Shown here piece by piece: positions 14,832 through 22,749 of a stretch of 33,205 bases of DNA; the stretch's first letter is position 1; each line of letters opens with the position of its first letter. The translations under genes were made by a program, and so were the position numbers. The DNA is taken from IMG/VR virus record IMGVR_UViG_2617270988_000009, one strand, 5' to 3'. Source of the DNA: a virus. Lineage: Duplodnaviria > Heunggongvirae > Uroviricota > Caudoviricetes. The notes under the pieces were generated by a model. It was not told where the DNA came from, made no database searches, and saw nothing but the letters and a program-made list of their open reading frames with translations.

Positions 14832-14856
14832 CAAAAAAAACCTGCCACAGCAGGTT
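14832..14856 (-). terminator. hairpin plus T8 run on the minus strand just upstream of the tape measure ribosome-binding site (terminator-like or attenuator)
   Basis: ACCTGC-(tgtg)-GCAGGT stem followed by TTTTTTTT on the minus strand, between the G-T stop and the H start. Confidence 0.35.
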
Positions 14857-14867
14857 TTCATCATTAT

Positions 14868-15547
14868 TTATGACATTGCTGCAAGGCTCAGCGCGTCTTC
14901 CAGCGCCGCAAACGGATCCACCTCCGGCTTATCCTCATCCTCGCCCCAGCAGAGCATGGCGTCCTTCAGTGCAACATTCATCCCCTGTGCCCCGAAAACC
15001 GCTTTCACGATCTGTGCATTACGGATATCCCCGCGCTCATCACCCAGCGGGGATACCCTGTCGAACTCCATCCACATCATCGCCTCGCTCGCACTCAGGC
15101 TGTGCCGCAGTTCGGATAAGGTGCGCCCCAGACGGAGCGCAAGTCGCATCAGAAAGCGAATTTCCGGGCGGGCTACTTTTTTCTGGCCGACTCTGCATCA
15201 GCGATCAGTTCCAGTGCCTGACGCAGCAACCGGGCATGTACCGGACCATAGACGGCCAGCACCTGCTCACGGTCGTCCGGAGTGAACACCCGTTGCAGGT
15301 CAGTATCACACAGGACATCGCAGAACAGCGTCACATCCGCTTCCAGGTTACGGCGGGTTTTCGCCACCACCGACAGGGTATCGTCATCCTCTCCATCACC
15401 ATTGAGCACTTCCTGCCACAGATACCAGGCCTCTGCCGAAGGCTCCCGCAGCACCACGCTGACATTTCTCCATTCCGGCACCTTCACCGTTTTATGACGG
15501 AACCCCGACAGTCTGGCCAGCGCCAGTGTTTTCAGATCTTTTGCCAT
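14868..15547 (-). CDS. tail assembly chaperone G-T fusion produced by programmed -1 ribosomal frameshift
   Basis: The -1 frame is open from the slippery site through 14868 (…KKVARPEIRFLMRLALRLGRTL...), recreating the conserved lambdoid G/G-T arrangement. Confidence 0.55.
15173..15547 (-). CDS. G: tail assembly chaperone G (lambda gpG-like), 124 aa
   Basis: Position between the major tail and tape measure genes; ends ...ESARKK-stop with an A-AAA-AAG slippery heptamer at its 3' end. Confidence 0.65.
   Translation of the reverse strand: MAKDLKTLALARLSGFRHKTVKVPEWRNVSVVLREPSAEAWYLWQEVLNGDGEDDDTLSVVAKTRRNLEADVTLFCDVLCDTDLQRVFTPDDREQVLAVYGPVHARLLRQALELIADAESARKK
15176..15182 (-). promoter_or_regulatory. 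-1 frameshift slippery heptamer A-AAA-AAG (G to G-T)
   Basis: Heptamer of X-XXY-YYZ type in the G zero frame, immediately before the G stop codon. Confidence 0.55.
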
Positions 15548-15552
15548 AAGCC

Positions 15553-20549: not shown

Positions 20550-20760
20550 TCGCCATGCTCCGCATCATGTTTCTTTTTCTGACCCGCCGGACGTCGCGCT
20601 GTGATGTACTCCGCCTTCCTCAGGCGAACCAGCACCTCCGCACACGGCTGTGCGACATCCCGGATATCCCCGGGCCGGGCATCATGCGTGCCCTGCAGAT
20701 ATCGGATTTTTGCCATCAGTTACTGCGGGACGCTCTCACCTCCCGCCCTCCTCATCAGAC

Positions 20761-22686
20761 TCAGCCGCCGGACGCACTGCCGTAGTTCACACCGGTGATC
20801 ACAGCCACCGCCGCAGTACGGCGACGACGCCAGTTGATCCAGCGCTCCGCACGGATGGCCACGCTGCCTGTCTGGAACATGGAAACCAGCTCCACCGGGG
20901 ACGGCGTGGTACTGTCGCCGCCCGGCTCAGACTGCATTTCCAGTGATGCCTCGCGGGACATATCCACTGCCACGCCGCCGTCATCCGCCAGATAAATATC
21001 CGGGGCATTCACCAGCACCAGCTGGTCACCCACGTACTGGGAGACAATCACCGGCAGCCCCTGGAAGGAGCCACCCAGCAGGGTCATGTCCGGGTATTCC
21101 TTCTGACCCAGCGCATTTTTACGCATGGACAGTGCCAGGGCATTGGTGCTGGACATCAGCCAGACCGCACCGGTGGGCTGCAGGTTTGCTGCCACAAACT
21201 GGCCAAACGCCGCCTCTGCATCCGCATCCGGGTTACCGGTTGATGCCGTGCCCTTCACATCATGGGTGATGGACGCCGGGGAGACATCTGCCACTGCGGC
21301 TTTTTTCGGGTCCACAAAGTCTGTATCCAGACGCGCCACCACCGCTTCCGCCAGCGCATTACGGACCAGTGCATCAGCAGCCGGACTGGAAAAACGGATC
21401 AATTCTTCCGTCAGTACCGCAATGGCCGACACTTTCGCATGACTGAAGGTGATGGATTCAAAATCAAACTTCGTCAGGGGTCTGGCCTTACCCTCACCCA
21501 CCCAGCCGGCAGCACCGCCGGACACCTGGGCGTGCACACGGATATTGAACGGCACCTGACGAAGTGCAGGGATCCCGCCCTGACCAAATCGCCCGATAAT
21601 GGTCTGCGGACGCAGGTAATCAATAAAGTCCTGTGCGTATTCCTGATATTCAGACAGGCTGCCTGCCCACTGCGGATCCGTGGTGGTCCCCGCGCCCACT
21701 GCCGATTTCAGGACATGATGCAGACGACTGTCATCCGGATACTGACGACGGGCCACTTCCAGGGCTTCAGAGCGGACACCTTTAGCCGCAGCCAGCGATT
21801 TGGCAAAACGTGCGAAACCAATCCCCTTATCCAGTTTCTGCTCCACACGGATCACCGGCGCAGAAGCCACCGCGGCCACATTCCCGTTACCGGCCTGTTT
21901 CACCGGCTGTGCCGTGGCGGCCTTACTGGTTTCCAGTTCACGCAGACGCTTCAGGTGCGCATCCACCTGACGGATTTCCGCTGCGGTGTTGTCGTAGTGC
22001 TCTTCCTCTTCCACATCCAGTGTGCGGCCTTCCTCTGCGGCTTTGTTCATGATCTCCTCAAGGGAGGCTGCCAGCGCCGCACGCTTGTTTTCAAAACTTT
22101 TAATCTGTTCACCAGTATTCATTGCTGACTTTTCCTTATGAAAAGAGGTTATTGACTGTGCCGAAGCGCCGGCAGAAGATGCGATTTTCACCACCGGTTT
22201 CCGTGCAGAAAACGGGCGGTCGTAAGATTTAATGGTCCGGATGGTGCATTCCGCATTCGCGGGTACGGTGACGGCAGATACCTCCATCAGTTCCCAGCGC
22301 AGAAAATGCAGTCCGCCCCCGTCCAGAAAGGTGTATTCATGGGGACGGAAGCCCACGGAAAGCCCCCTGACCAGCCCGGTCTTAATGGCCGCCCAGGCCT
22401 CATCCAGCCGGGCAACCAGTTGCGATGGCATATCCGGCACGGGCTTCGCCAGTGTTGCCGTGATTTCCAGCCCTTCGCTGACCCGGCGCACCGTACACTG
22501 CCCCACCGGGCGGGAATGGTCATGCTGCCAGAGAAACGGGATCGCACTGCCAAACTCCGCGCCCTCCGGCTCCAGGATGTCACCATCCCGATCCGGAGAA
22601 GGCGTTGACGCAATCCCGGTGATCACCCGCTCATCCTCACTGAAGGATTTCACCGTCAGCAGGGAGCAGGCCCGTTTAAGAGTCAC
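20761..22686 (-). CDS. prohead protease - scaffold (delta) - major capsid protein fusion (HK97-like), 641 aa
   Basis: N-terminal HK97 prohead protease-like motifs (ITGIASTPSPDRDGDILEPEGAEF, LWQHDHSRPVGQ), central coiled-coil, C-terminal HK97-fold capsid-like region (GEGKARPLTKFDFESITFSHAKVSAIAVLTEEL). Confidence 0.8.
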   Translation of the reverse strand: MTLKRACSLLTVKSFSEDERVITGIASTPSPDRDGDILEPEGAEFGSAIPFLWQHDHSRPVGQCTVRRVSEGLEITATLAKPVPDMPSQLVARLDEAWAAIKTGLVRGLSVGFRPHEYTFLDGGGLHFLRWELMEVSAVTVPANAECTIRTIKSYDRPFSARKPVVKIASSAGASAQSITSFHKEKSAMNTGEQIKSFENKRAALAASLEEIMNKAAEEGRTLDVEEEEHYDNTAAEIRQVDAHLKRLRELETSKAATAQPVKQAGNGNVAAVASAPVIRVEQKLDKGIGFARFAKSLAAAKGVRSEALEVARRQYPDDSRLHHVLKSAVGAGTTTDPQWAGSLSEYQEYAQDFIDYLRPQTIIGRFGQGGIPALRQVPFNIRVHAQVSGGAAGWVGEGKARPLTKFDFESITFSHAKVSAIAVLTEELIRFSSPAADALVRNALAEAVVARLDTDFVDPKKAAVADVSPASITHDVKGTASTGNPDADAEAAFGQFVAANLQPTGAVWLMSSTNALALSMRKNALGQKEYPDMTLLGGSFQGLPVIVSQYVGDQLVLVNAPDIYLADDGGVAVDMSREASLEMQSEPGGDSTTPSPVELVSMFQTGSVAIRAERWINWRRRRTAAVAVITGVNYGSASGG

Positions 22687-22749
22687 ATCAGCCTCCTGAA
22701 AATAAAAAAACCGCCGCAGCGGTCCATAATGGTTACAGGGTGAACAGGG

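What the first reader, a model, noticed from the sequence alone, without database searches (positions are those of the whole stretch)
14832..22723. Recurrent hairpin - T-run - Shine-Dalgarno motif upstream of major structural genes
Upstream of the tape measure (14832..14856), major tail (16284..16306) and protease-capsid (22702..22723) genes, a short GC hairpin is followed on the minus strand by a run of 6 to 8 T and then an AGGAGG-like ribosome-binding site. Terminator-like structures inside a late operon are unexpected. They may be leaky terminators or RNA-stability elements that set the stoichiometry of structural proteins.
Basis: seen in the sequence. Interest (0 to 1): 0.45.

Follow-up and report, generated by a model that had tools for sequence, protein, structure and literature searches.

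The report
Intrinsic terminators inside phage late operon
Three short hairpin-plus-T-run signals just upstream of the capsid, tail-tube and tape-measure genes of an E. coli lambdoid prophage are real and strongly conserved, but they are the same terminator-like punctuation already annotated in phage HK97, so the finding is ordinary even though their exact role has never been settled experimentally.

Summary
All three sites exist on the minus (sense) strand within 2 nt of the stated coordinates. Each is a GC hairpin, 6-8 T, a GGAG/AGGAGG ribosome-binding site and a start codon 21-24 nt after the stem. They are far beyond chance: 4 strict hits in the 13.7-kb late region against 0.115 expected, and 3 of them lie in the 1.9% that is non-coding.

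The window is a truncated lambdoid EHEC prophage (BP-4795 / Sakai Sp10 type) with an HK97-type tail module. In 36 of 36 distant relatives (tail-tube protein 43-84% identical, several genera) a hairpin+T-run lies 19-25 nt before the tail-tube gene, with 31 distinct hairpins and compensatory changes. It lies before the tape-measure gene in 14 of 19.

The HK97 GenBank record already marks these junctions as "putative terminator". [quoted passage not shown]

Most likely they are genuine Rho-independent terminators that Q-modified RNA polymerase reads through. The claim that they are unexpected is wrong. The idea that leaky termination sets stoichiometry fits poorly, because two sites precede the most abundant proteins. 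No 3'-end data could be consulted. Novelty: already known. Interest: low.

The parts
14833..14858 (-). S1: hairpin AAAACCTGC-TGTG-GCAGGTTTT (14858-14837) plus T8 run (14840-14833), between tail chaperone T (stop 14870-14868) and the tape measure gene
   Evidence: Two alleles occur in 72 close relatives and differ by a paired indel that keeps the stem (CCTGC/GCAGG vs CCGC/GCGG). CM R1 scores it 34.7 bits.
14814..14828 (-). S1 ribosome-binding site GGAG (14828-14825) and ATG (14816-14814) of the tape measure gene (11574-14816)
16286..16306 (-). S2: hairpin CCCGC-CGCGT-GCGGG (16306-16292) plus T6 run (16291-16286), between the tail terminator gene (stop 16338-16336) and the major tail gene
   Evidence: The orthologous element is present in 36/36 distant HK97-type tail modules. 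HK97 annotates it as a putative terminator at 6692-6719.
16267..16279 (-). S2 ribosome-binding site AGGAGG (16279-16274) and ATG (16269-16267) of the major tail protein gene (15553-16269)
22704..22725 (-). S3: hairpin GGACCGC-TGCG-GCGGTTT (22725-22708) plus T7 run (22710-22704), between TerL (stop 22752-22750) and the protease-capsid fusion gene
   Evidence: Kept with a different stem in Salmonella phage SP-016, with a weaker T-rich tail in Pseudomonas PAJU2, and with a T-rich tail in Salinicola locus L124. CM R1 scores it 30.6 bits.
22684..22697 (-). S3 ribosome-binding site AGGAGG (22697-22692) and GTG (22686-22684) of the protease-major capsid fusion gene (20761-22686)
20725..20746 (-). Hairpin GCGGGA-(10 nt)-TCCCGC just after the protease-capsid stop codon, with no T-run. 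Together with S3 it brackets the capsid gene.
   Evidence: Comparable hairpins follow the capsid gene in SP-016, PAJU2 and Mcat7.

Best explanation
The three sites are Rho-independent terminator modules fused directly to the ribosome-binding site of the next gene. They are an inherited architectural feature of HK97-type late operons.

Proposed mechanism:
1. RNA polymerase that has not been modified by the phage Q antiterminator stops at the hairpin+U tract. This covers spurious internal starts, read-through from upstream in the lysogen, and moron promoters where present.
2. Polymerase loaded with Q at the late promoter pR' (just beyond the right end of the window) reads through. This has to happen, because the 21-24 nt between stem and start codon leave no room for a new promoter.
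3. Expression of the capsid, tail-tube and tape-measure genes, and of everything downstream, is therefore strictly antitermination-dependent.
4. After read-through the hairpin and U tract remain in the mRNA immediately 5' of the Shine-Dalgarno sequence. There they probably also break translational coupling with the low-copy upstream gene and mark stable segment boundaries.

Shown here: sequence anatomy, orientation, spacing, conservation and covariation.
Inferred: termination of unmodified polymerase, read-through by Q, and the physiological purpose.
For: Sequence features:
- Canonical terminator anatomy at all three sites.
- About 35-fold excess over shuffles, and confinement to intergenic gaps.
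- Strong sense-strand bias in relatives: 118 sense against 14 antisense strict hits. All 71 significant CM hits are on the sense strand.

Conservation:
- 36/36 before the major tail gene (19-25 nt from the start codon, 31 distinct hairpins) and 14/19 before the tape measure gene, but 0/35 before the tail terminator, gp10-like and T genes (0/34 before Hc1).
- Compensatory changes in 5 of 7 consensus pairs, and a paired indel at S1.
- Both the hairpin and the U run are always kept. An intrinsic terminator is the known element that requires both.

Context:
- The window is a lambdoid Stx-phage-type prophage. Relatives carry a Q antiterminator upstream of the same late genes.
- HK97 curators annotated the homologous junctions as putative terminators.
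- In HK97, Klebsiella Kp4874-4 and Salmonella SP-016, a moron sits between the chaperone and tape measure genes, directly upstream of the S1-type element. Morons are described as independent transcription units with their own promoter and terminator that mediate expression from repressed prophages, so a terminator is needed there in the lysogen.

Established knowledge: Q-loaded RNA polymerase resists downstream terminators (PMC6606751 abstract; PMC7547250).
Against: - No 3'-end, read-through or in vitro termination data could be consulted for these sites.
- The S2 stem is only 5 bp (-7.5 kcal/mol) and its folding z-score is -1.0.
- The Q gene and pR' are not inside the window.
- This copy is a truncated, defective prophage, so function here may be vestigial.
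- An insulator role does not by itself explain why the element sits at fixed spacing directly before the most abundant structural genes. Lambda also has a hairpin+T7 19 nt before its capsid gene E.
- The authors of the phage L paper say the roles of such terminators are not known.
Confidence: 0.55

Rival explanations
1. Leaky attenuators or mRNA-stability elements that set structural-protein stoichiometry. Either partial termination steps transcript levels down along the operon, or the hairpins act as 3'-exonuclease barriers and 5' stabilisers so that bracketed segments (capsid gene; tail tube plus chaperones) accumulate.
For: - The protease-capsid gene is bracketed by S3 and a hairpin at 20746-20725. 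MTP-G-T is bracketed by S2 and S1.
- In HK97-type heads a hairpin+T-run follows the capsid gene, and in 9/35 loci one follows the tail-tube gene.
- S1 precedes the low-copy tape measure protein.
- Partial termination is one of the two possibilities offered in PMC8022706.
Against: - S3 and S2 lie upstream of the most abundant proteins and downstream of low-copy ones, with no promoter space. Termination there would work against the required ratios.
- A pure stability hairpin does not need the U run, yet the U run is kept in all 36 major-tail-junction loci.
- No expression data are available.
Confidence: 0.25
2. Primarily a translation-initiation module. The U tract is a ribosome standby / protein S1 platform that boosts de novo initiation where translational coupling is broken, and the hairpin keeps upstream sequence from pairing with the ribosome-binding site. 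On this reading the resemblance to a terminator is secondary. The E. coli rnd leader works this way (hairpin-U8-SD; from my own knowledge of Zhang and Deutscher 1992, not checked here).
For: - Fixed spacing from stem to start codon: 19-25 nt for the tail-tube gene and 18-24 nt for the tape measure gene.
- The U run abuts the SD at every site.
- The motif occurs exactly where a high-copy gene, or a gene that cannot rely on coupling, follows a low-copy gene.
- Lambda E has two U7 runs and a weak SD after a similar hairpin.
Against: - A U-rich enhancer would not need a GC hairpin with covariation.
- SD strength at the three genes is not exceptional within the operon.
- In HK97 the same element also precedes minor genes I and J.
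- The compact spacing is equally explained by genome economy.
Confidence: 0.15
3. Relics of moron insertions, or linker sequences at mosaic module boundaries, with no present function.
For: - The T-to-tape-measure junction is a moron site in HK97, Kp4874-4 and SP-016.
- S1 sits at the edge of a variable block in close relatives.
Against: - There is no moron ORF at any of the three gaps (51, 66 and 63 nt) in the window.
- Steps in identity between relatives occur all along the operon and are not concentrated at S2 or S3.
- 36/36 retention with compensatory change argues for ongoing selection.
Confidence: 0.04
4. 3' ends of Hfq-binding small RNAs of the kind catalogued in EHEC prophages.
For: [quoted passage not shown]
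- HnrS is described as lying in the late genes (PMC13502914).
Against: - None of the 63 EcOnc peaks maps to the homologous junctions.
- HnrS (EcOnc11) lies between Rz and the DUF3950 gene in Sakai Sp10, on the opposite strand to the late genes.
- Rfam gives only chance-level matches over S1 and S2 (rsmX E=4, isrK E=2).
- Caveat: that survey excluded sense-strand peaks within 100 bp of coding regions, so its silence on these sites is weak evidence.
Confidence: 0.01

Closest known systems
Putative late-operon terminators of phage HK97 (regulatory features in GenBank NC_002167)
   Same: Same junctions: tail terminator to major tail gene (6692-6719) and chaperone/moron to tape measure gene (8398-8422). 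Same orientation and same hairpin-T-run-SD layout. The HK97 element aligns with S2 and shares the CCGC/GCGG stem core.
   Different: HK97 has the classical portal-protease-capsid head order, with terminators before the protease and after the capsid gene. Here the head module is a TerL to protease-capsid fusion, with the element before the capsid gene (S3) and a U-less hairpin after it. HK97 carries the gp15 moron at the S1-type junction; this prophage does not.
Intra-operon terminators of P22-like phages (phage L; PMC8022706)
   Same: Predicted Rho-independent terminators inside a single-promoter, antitermination-dependent late operon. The candidate roles are the same: partial termination, or stopping polymerase that lacks antitermination.
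   Different: A different structural module (podovirus) and a different position (end of the procapsid module). No fixed coupling to a downstream ribosome-binding site is described.
Lambda Q / pR' / tR' antitermination, and the StxS-producing tR' of Stx phages
   Same: The same regulatory logic is assumed: terminators that only Q-modified polymerase passes (PMC7547250; PMC6606751).
   Different: tR' lies in the leader, and its termination and read-through are experimentally shown. S1-S3 lie 10-18 kb downstream between structural genes and are untested.
E. coli rnd leader (GC hairpin, U8, SD); from my own knowledge, not verified here
   Same: A terminator look-alike immediately 5' of a ribosome-binding site, in which the U run is needed for translation.
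   Different: A 5' leader of a monocistronic host gene. There is no antitermination context and no homology.
Moron terminators (for example after HK97 gene 15)
   Same: The S1-type element is the terminator that ends moron transcripts in phages carrying a moron at this junction.
   Different: In this window no moron gene or promoter lies at any of the three gaps.

Membership tests
Rho-independent (intrinsic) terminator | GC-rich stem of about 5-14 bp with a 3-8 nt loop | tested here: met
   S1 has 7-9 bp, S2 5 bp, S3 5-7 bp; loops are 4-5 nt; hairpin energies are -7.5 to -10.7 kcal/mol.
Rho-independent (intrinsic) terminator | U tract of about 6 or more immediately 3' of the stem on the transcribed strand | tested here: met
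   T8, T6 and T7 start 0 nt after the stem. The approximate d'Aubenton-Carafa-type score is positive for all three core hairpins.
Rho-independent (intrinsic) terminator | Located after a stop codon in non-coding sequence, in the sense orientation | tested here: met
   All three lie in intergenic gaps. 3 of 4 strict hits fall in the 1.9% non-coding fraction. In relatives, strict hits are 118 sense against 14 antisense.
Rho-independent (intrinsic) terminator | RNA 3' ends / release of unmodified RNA polymerase at the U tract | not testable with these tools
   Sakai Term-seq data exist (GEO accession given in PMC7547250), but no coordinate tables are held.
HK97-type late-operon punctuation (annotated putative terminators) | Element at the tail terminator / major tail gene junction and at the chaperone / tape measure junction | tested here: met
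   for HK97. 36/36 and 14/19 in distant relatives. S2 and S1 occupy these junctions.
HK97-type late-operon punctuation (annotated putative terminators) | Sequence and structure similarity to the HK97 element | tested here: met
   The alignment and consensus fold include HK97. CM R1 scores HK97 6687-6735 at 45 bits (in the training set). It scores HK97 8392-8437 at 36 bits, S1 at 34.7 bits and S3 at 30.6 bits; these three were not in the training set.
Q-antiterminated operon terminator (read through by Q-modified polymerase) | Q gene, Q-binding element and pR' upstream of the operon | tested here: inconclusive
   Not inside the window, which ends in the tRNA cluster at 33205. Close relatives BP-4795 and Sakai Sp10 have Q directly upstream of the same late genes.
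Q-antiterminated operon terminator (read through by Q-modified polymerase) | Q-dependent read-through demonstrated | not testable with these tools
   Requires in vitro transcription or reporter assays.
Moron (promoter-gene-terminator insertion) | An extra ORF with its own promoter between conserved neighbours | tested here: not met
   The gaps are 51, 66 and 63 nt with no ORF. No sense-strand promoter-like site was found at the gaps.
EHEC prophage Hfq-binding sRNAs (EcOnc series, HnrS) | Listed Hfq peak at the homologous position in strain Sakai | tested here: not met
   Table S2 of PMC4104026, mapped on Sp10 and Sp4, has no peak at these junctions. The survey excluded sense-strand peaks near coding regions, so this is weak evidence.
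Any curated Rfam family | Match at or above the gathering score | tested here: not met
   There are no matches in 14500-23000 at gathering score. Only chance-level matches are found with E >= 2.
RNase III processing site | Extended duplex of roughly 20 bp | tested here: not met
   Stems are 5-9 bp.
rnd-type U-rich translational enhancer | U run directly 5' of the SD | tested here: met
   The U run ends 4-6 nt before the SD at all three sites.
rnd-type U-rich translational enhancer | Translation depends on the U run | not testable with these tools
   Needs translational fusions.

The most novel reading that the evidence does not exclude
The hairpin-U7-SD unit, held 18-25 nt from the start codon across genera, might not be primarily a terminator. 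It could be a dedicated post-transcriptional expression cassette, combining an S1/standby platform with a 5' hairpin that stabilises the downstream segment after endonucleolytic processing. Such a cassette would let abundant structural genes escape translational coupling.

Alternatively, its selected role could be to keep the capsid and tail-tube proteins, which are known triggers of abortive-infection sensors, completely silent in lysogens.
Probability: 0.18. Interest if true: 0.5.

Novelty: already known. Interest (0 to 1): 0.2.

Why it matters
It matters little as a discovery. The elements belong to a class seen in HK97, P22-like phages, SPP1 and even lambda.

The useful outcome is a clean comparative data set showing that one junction, tail terminator to tail tube gene, keeps a hairpin+U run at fixed spacing in every relative examined. 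This makes the unresolved question of what intra-operon terminators in antiterminated late operons do easy to test, for example in HK97 or in an inducible EHEC prophage.

For annotation, it shows that these gaps should be labelled as regulatory features. They should not be searched for small genes or sRNAs.

Tried and rejected
1. sRNA identity. The lead was the multicopy late-gene sRNA HnrS (EcOnc10/11/12). Mapping Table S2 of PMC4104026 onto Sakai Sp10 puts it between Rz and the DUF3950 gene, on the strand opposite the late genes. No EcOnc peak lies at the three junctions.

2. Rfam. Nothing reaches gathering score in the region. The weak rsmX and isrK overlaps (E = 4 and 2) are terminator-only chance matches.

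3. Mosaic-boundary / recombination-linker idea. Steps in identity of 5 points or more between the window and 81 close relatives occur throughout the operon. Only S1 sits at the edge of a variable block; S2 and S3 show few steps. The result is inconclusive and is not adopted.

4. Exceptional Shine-Dalgarno strength. AGGAGG at S2 and S3 is no stronger than at Ad1, Hc1 or the gp10-like gene, and S1 is average.

5. Internal promoters after the hairpins. None were found, and there is no room for one.

6. Direct 3'-end evidence. No supplementary tables are held for the Sakai Term-seq papers. The lambda ribosome-profiling paper and the HK97 gp15 paper are not held.

7. MAFFT alignment of the S2-type elements is out of register for some stems. 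Per-column covariation counts are therefore conservative, and I rely mainly on detection rates.
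Full report
**What is in the window**

- S1 lies between the stop codon of the tail chaperone T frame (14870-14868) and the ATG of a 1080-aa tape measure gene (14816). It consists of AAAACCTGC-TGTG-GCAGGTTTT (14858-14837), a T8 run (14840-14833) and GGAG (14828-14825).
- S2 lies between the tail terminator gene (stop 16338-16336) and the 238-aa major tail gene (ATG 16269). It consists of CCCGC-CGCGT-GCGGG (16306-16292), T6 (16291-16286) and AGGAGG (16279-16274).
- S3 lies between TerL (stop 22752-22750) and a 641-aa protein (GTG 22686) that carries Peptidase_S78 and Phage_capsid domains. It consists of GGACCGC-TGCG-GCGGTTT (22725-22708), T7 (22710-22704) and AGGAGG (22697-22692).

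**Is it more than chance?**

Folding energy alone is only moderately unusual. The z-scores are -2.4, -1.0 and -2.3 against dinucleotide shuffles of 51-nt windows.

Position settles the matter. I used a strict detector requiring a perfect stem of at least 5 bp with at least 3 GC pairs, a 3-8 nt loop, energy of -6 kcal/mol or lower, and at least 6 T in 8 starting within 2 nt of the stem. On the sense strand of the 13,732-nt late region (24971-11240) it finds 4 hits. The mean in 200 dinucleotide-preserving shuffles is 0.115, and no shuffle reached 4. Three of the four hits lie in the 261 nt (1.9%) between genes, P = 2.7e-5. Three of the four intergenic gaps of 40 nt or more carry the motif. The fourth gap, after the capsid gene, carries a hairpin without a T-run (20746-20725).

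**What the locus is**

The region is 96-97% identical to the late genes of Stx-phage-type lambdoid phages and prophages such as BP-4795, Stx2 phage 1717, phage 2851 and Sakai Sp10. It occurs in 1253 of 5426 complete E. coli genomes, with a median of 6 places per genome.

Gene order on the minus strand is terS, terL, protease-capsid fusion, small ORF, portal, a 461-aa repeat protein, Ad1, Hc1, gp10-like, tail terminator, major tail, G, G-T, tape measure, M.

In the relatives a Q antiterminator lies upstream of the same late genes. In the window, Q and pR' lie beyond the right end, which stops inside a tRNA cluster. This copy is a remnant: homology to Sp10 ends at about 11164 inside gene L. The flanking genes are chromosomal, namely potB, potA, pepT and roxA, together with an integrase.

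**Conservation in close relatives**

In 80 IMG/VR loci whose tail-tube protein is 90-100% identical, the three hairpins persist. S1 has two alleles, CCTGC-TGTG-GCAGG and CCGC-TGAG-GCGG. They differ by loss of one base on each arm, a paired change that keeps the stem. S3 varies in the loop (TGCG or TCCG) and in a closing G/A that pairs with U either way. In S2 the stem is kept in all but one of 79 loci.

**Conservation in distant relatives**

I collected 38 non-redundant HK97-type tail modules from phage records and from species-representative genomes. They come from Klebsiella, Serratia, Pectobacterium, Symbiopectobacterium, Providencia, Pantoea, Rahnella, Kosakonia, Enterobacter, Leclercia, Brenneria and Salinicola. 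Their tail-tube proteins are 43-84% identical to the window's.

The strict detector gives these rates for a hairpin+T-run ending within 70 nt upstream of each gene's start:

| Gene that follows | Loci with the element | Stem-to-start distance | Distinct hairpins |
|---|---|---|---|
| Tail tube (major tail) | 36/36 | 19-25 nt | 31 |
| Tape measure | 14/19 | 18-24 nt | 10 |
| G (i.e. after the tail tube gene) | 9/35 | 41-56 nt | 7 |
| Protease | 4/13 | 8-9 nt | 3 |
| Tail terminator, gp10-like, T | 0/35 each | - | - |
| Hc1 | 0/34 | - | - |

Other counts point the same way. Only 9 of 112 sense-strand hits lie inside labelled coding sequence. Across the same loci there are 118 sense hits against 14 antisense hits.

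An RNAalifold consensus of 40 distinct tail-tube-junction sequences gives a 7-bp hairpin, with both-sides-changed pairs at 5 positions and a conserved CCGC/GCGG core.

The S3-type element is kept before the protease-capsid fusion gene in several relatives:
- Salmonella phage SP-016 (76% protein identity): a different stem, GGCCCGC-GCAT-GCGGGTT, then TTTTCATTTCTGGAGG.
- Pseudomonas PAJU2 (48% identity): a hairpin with a weaker T-rich tail.
- Salinicola locus L124: a hairpin with a T-rich tail.
- Moraxella Mcat7: a hairpin only, with no T-run.

**One motif or three?**

A covariance model built from the tail-tube-junction alignment finds S1 (34.7 bits, E 2e-9) and S3 (30.6 bits, E 5e-8). These are the only other significant matches in the 33-kb window on either strand. 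S2 itself was in the training set and matches by construction. The next best hit scores 13.7 bits, and ordinary terminators elsewhere in the window score 9 bits or nothing.

In 44 other loci, all 71 significant hits are on the sense strand. Besides the training-set tail-tube sites, they include the tape-measure junctions, the HK97 sites before genes I and J, and the TerL-to-capsid junctions of SP-016 and PAJU2.

**Already described**

The HK97 GenBank record carries 'regulatory: terminator, putative' features inside the late operon. They are at:
- 3309-3335 (portal/protease junction)
- 5192-5213 (after the capsid gene)
- 6692-6719 (before the major tail gene, the orthologue of S2)
- 7443-7462 (after the major tail gene)
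- 8398-8422 (after the gp15 moron and before the tape measure gene, the orthologue of S1)
- 13799-13824
- 15107-15129

[quoted passage not shown] It offers two possibilities, partial termination or stopping spurious transcription that lacks antitermination (PMC8022706).

Lambda itself has GGCCGC-CTGT-GCGGCT followed by T7 19 nt before the capsid gene E, and a second hairpin after E. Terminator-like structures inside a late operon are therefore expected rather than surprising.

**How it most likely works**

Three facts constrain the mechanism.
1. Both the hairpin and the U run are always retained. An intrinsic terminator is the known element that needs both.
2. Only 21-24 nt separate the stem from the start codon, so there is no room for a promoter. 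The downstream genes can only be transcribed by read-through.
3. The operon belongs to phages whose late transcription depends on Q. Q-loaded polymerase is resistant to terminators (PMC6606751; PMC7547250).

The best-supported reading is that S1-S3 stop unmodified polymerase and are passed by Q-modified polymerase. This makes expression of the structural genes strictly antitermination-dependent.

Where a moron sits at the chaperone/tape-measure junction, the S1-type element lies directly downstream of it. This is the case in HK97, Klebsiella Kp4874-4 and Salmonella SP-016. Morons are described as having their own promoter and terminator, which mediate expression from repressed prophages (PMC3594210), so the S1-type element would serve as that terminator.

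After read-through, the hairpin and U tract remain in the mRNA immediately 5' of the Shine-Dalgarno sequence. There they plausibly break translational coupling and mark segment boundaries.

Everything beyond the sequence anatomy and conservation is inference. I give this explanation 0.55.

**Rivals**

It also fits the bracketing of the capsid gene (S3 plus the hairpin at 20746-20725) and of the tail tube plus chaperones (S2 to S1). However, attenuation at S3 and S2 would reduce the most abundant proteins relative to terminase and the tail terminator, and a stability hairpin would not need a U run.
- A primarily translational role (0.15) is suggested by the fixed spacing and by the U run abutting the SD. 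It does not explain the covarying GC stem. In HK97 the same element also precedes minor genes. SD strength at the three genes is not exceptional.
- Relic moron terminators or recombination linkers (0.04): there are no morons in these gaps, and identity steps between relatives are not concentrated at S2 or S3.
- sRNA 3' ends (0.01): none of the catalogued EHEC prophage sRNAs maps there. HnrS lies elsewhere, on the opposite strand. Rfam has no match.

**Verdict**

The feature is a known kind, orthologous at two of the three sites to annotated HK97 elements. Its physiological role is unproven here and in the literature I could read. Interest is low (0.2). The residual value is that the universal tail-tube-junction element offers a convenient system for testing what intra-operon terminators in antiterminated late operons are for.

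Noticed in passing
window 18269-19023 (minus-strand ORF 17803-19188): A 162-nt tandem repeat, 4.7 copies at 98% identity, lies inside the 461-aa ORF that relatives annotate as a second 'portal protein'. Pfam gives no portal domain for this ORF; the true portal is 19185-20549. The Sakai Sp10 homologue is 162 nt shorter, so copy number appears to vary between prophages.
   Followed up: partly
window about 11164, and 1-11100: The prophage is truncated. Homology to Sakai Sp10 stops at about 11164 inside tail gene L. The rest of the window encodes chromosomal genes (potB, potA, pepT-like M20 peptidase, roxA-like JmjC protein), a phage-type integrase (3249-4499) and a 453-aa ORF with no Pfam match (9719-11080).
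   Followed up: partly
window 32698-32887 (-), 32932-32949 (-), 32964-33205 (-): There is an Rfam STnc100 sRNA match (132 bits) directly downstream of a tRNA cluster (two tRNA-Arg plus a third tRNA cut by the window end) and of a strong terminator-like hairpin. This is probably the leader/moron-site region of the late operon, downstream of pR'.
   Followed up: no
window 26285-26464: This stretch is 94% identical to the Sakai Sp10 interval between Rz and the DUF3950 gene, which contains the Hfq-binding sRNA HnrS (EcOnc11). If HnrS is present here it would be on the plus strand, opposite the late genes.
   Followed up: partly
window 15176-15182 (-): The slippery heptamer A AAA AAG lies immediately before the G stop codon (TAG at 15175-15173), with the T frame continuing to 14868. 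This is the canonical -1 frameshift site for the G / G-T tail assembly chaperones.
   Followed up: no
window 11360-11379 (-): A terminator-like hairpin, GGCATGGTGGTTACCGTGCC followed by TTTTTG, lies inside the coding sequence of tail gene M. It is the only strict sense-strand hit within a late gene.
   Followed up: no
L129 (phage lambda) 6100-6122 and 7165-7185: Lambda's capsid gene E is preceded by a hairpin plus T7 19 nt before its start codon, with a second U7 and only a weak SD. E is also followed by a GGCCC-TTCG-GGGCC hairpin. The arrangement is therefore not confined to HK97-type modules.
   Followed up: partly
L101 (Enterobacter intestinihominis) 3690-3707 and 4464-4477: Two terminator-like elements flank an insert of about 750 nt between the tail terminator and major tail genes. 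This looks like a moron-type insertion at the S2-type junction.
   Followed up: no
window 26702-26735 (-): This is the best non-hairpin match to the covariance model (13.7 bits). It has a U run, GGAG and ATG but no stem, at the start of a lysis-region ORF.
   Followed up: no
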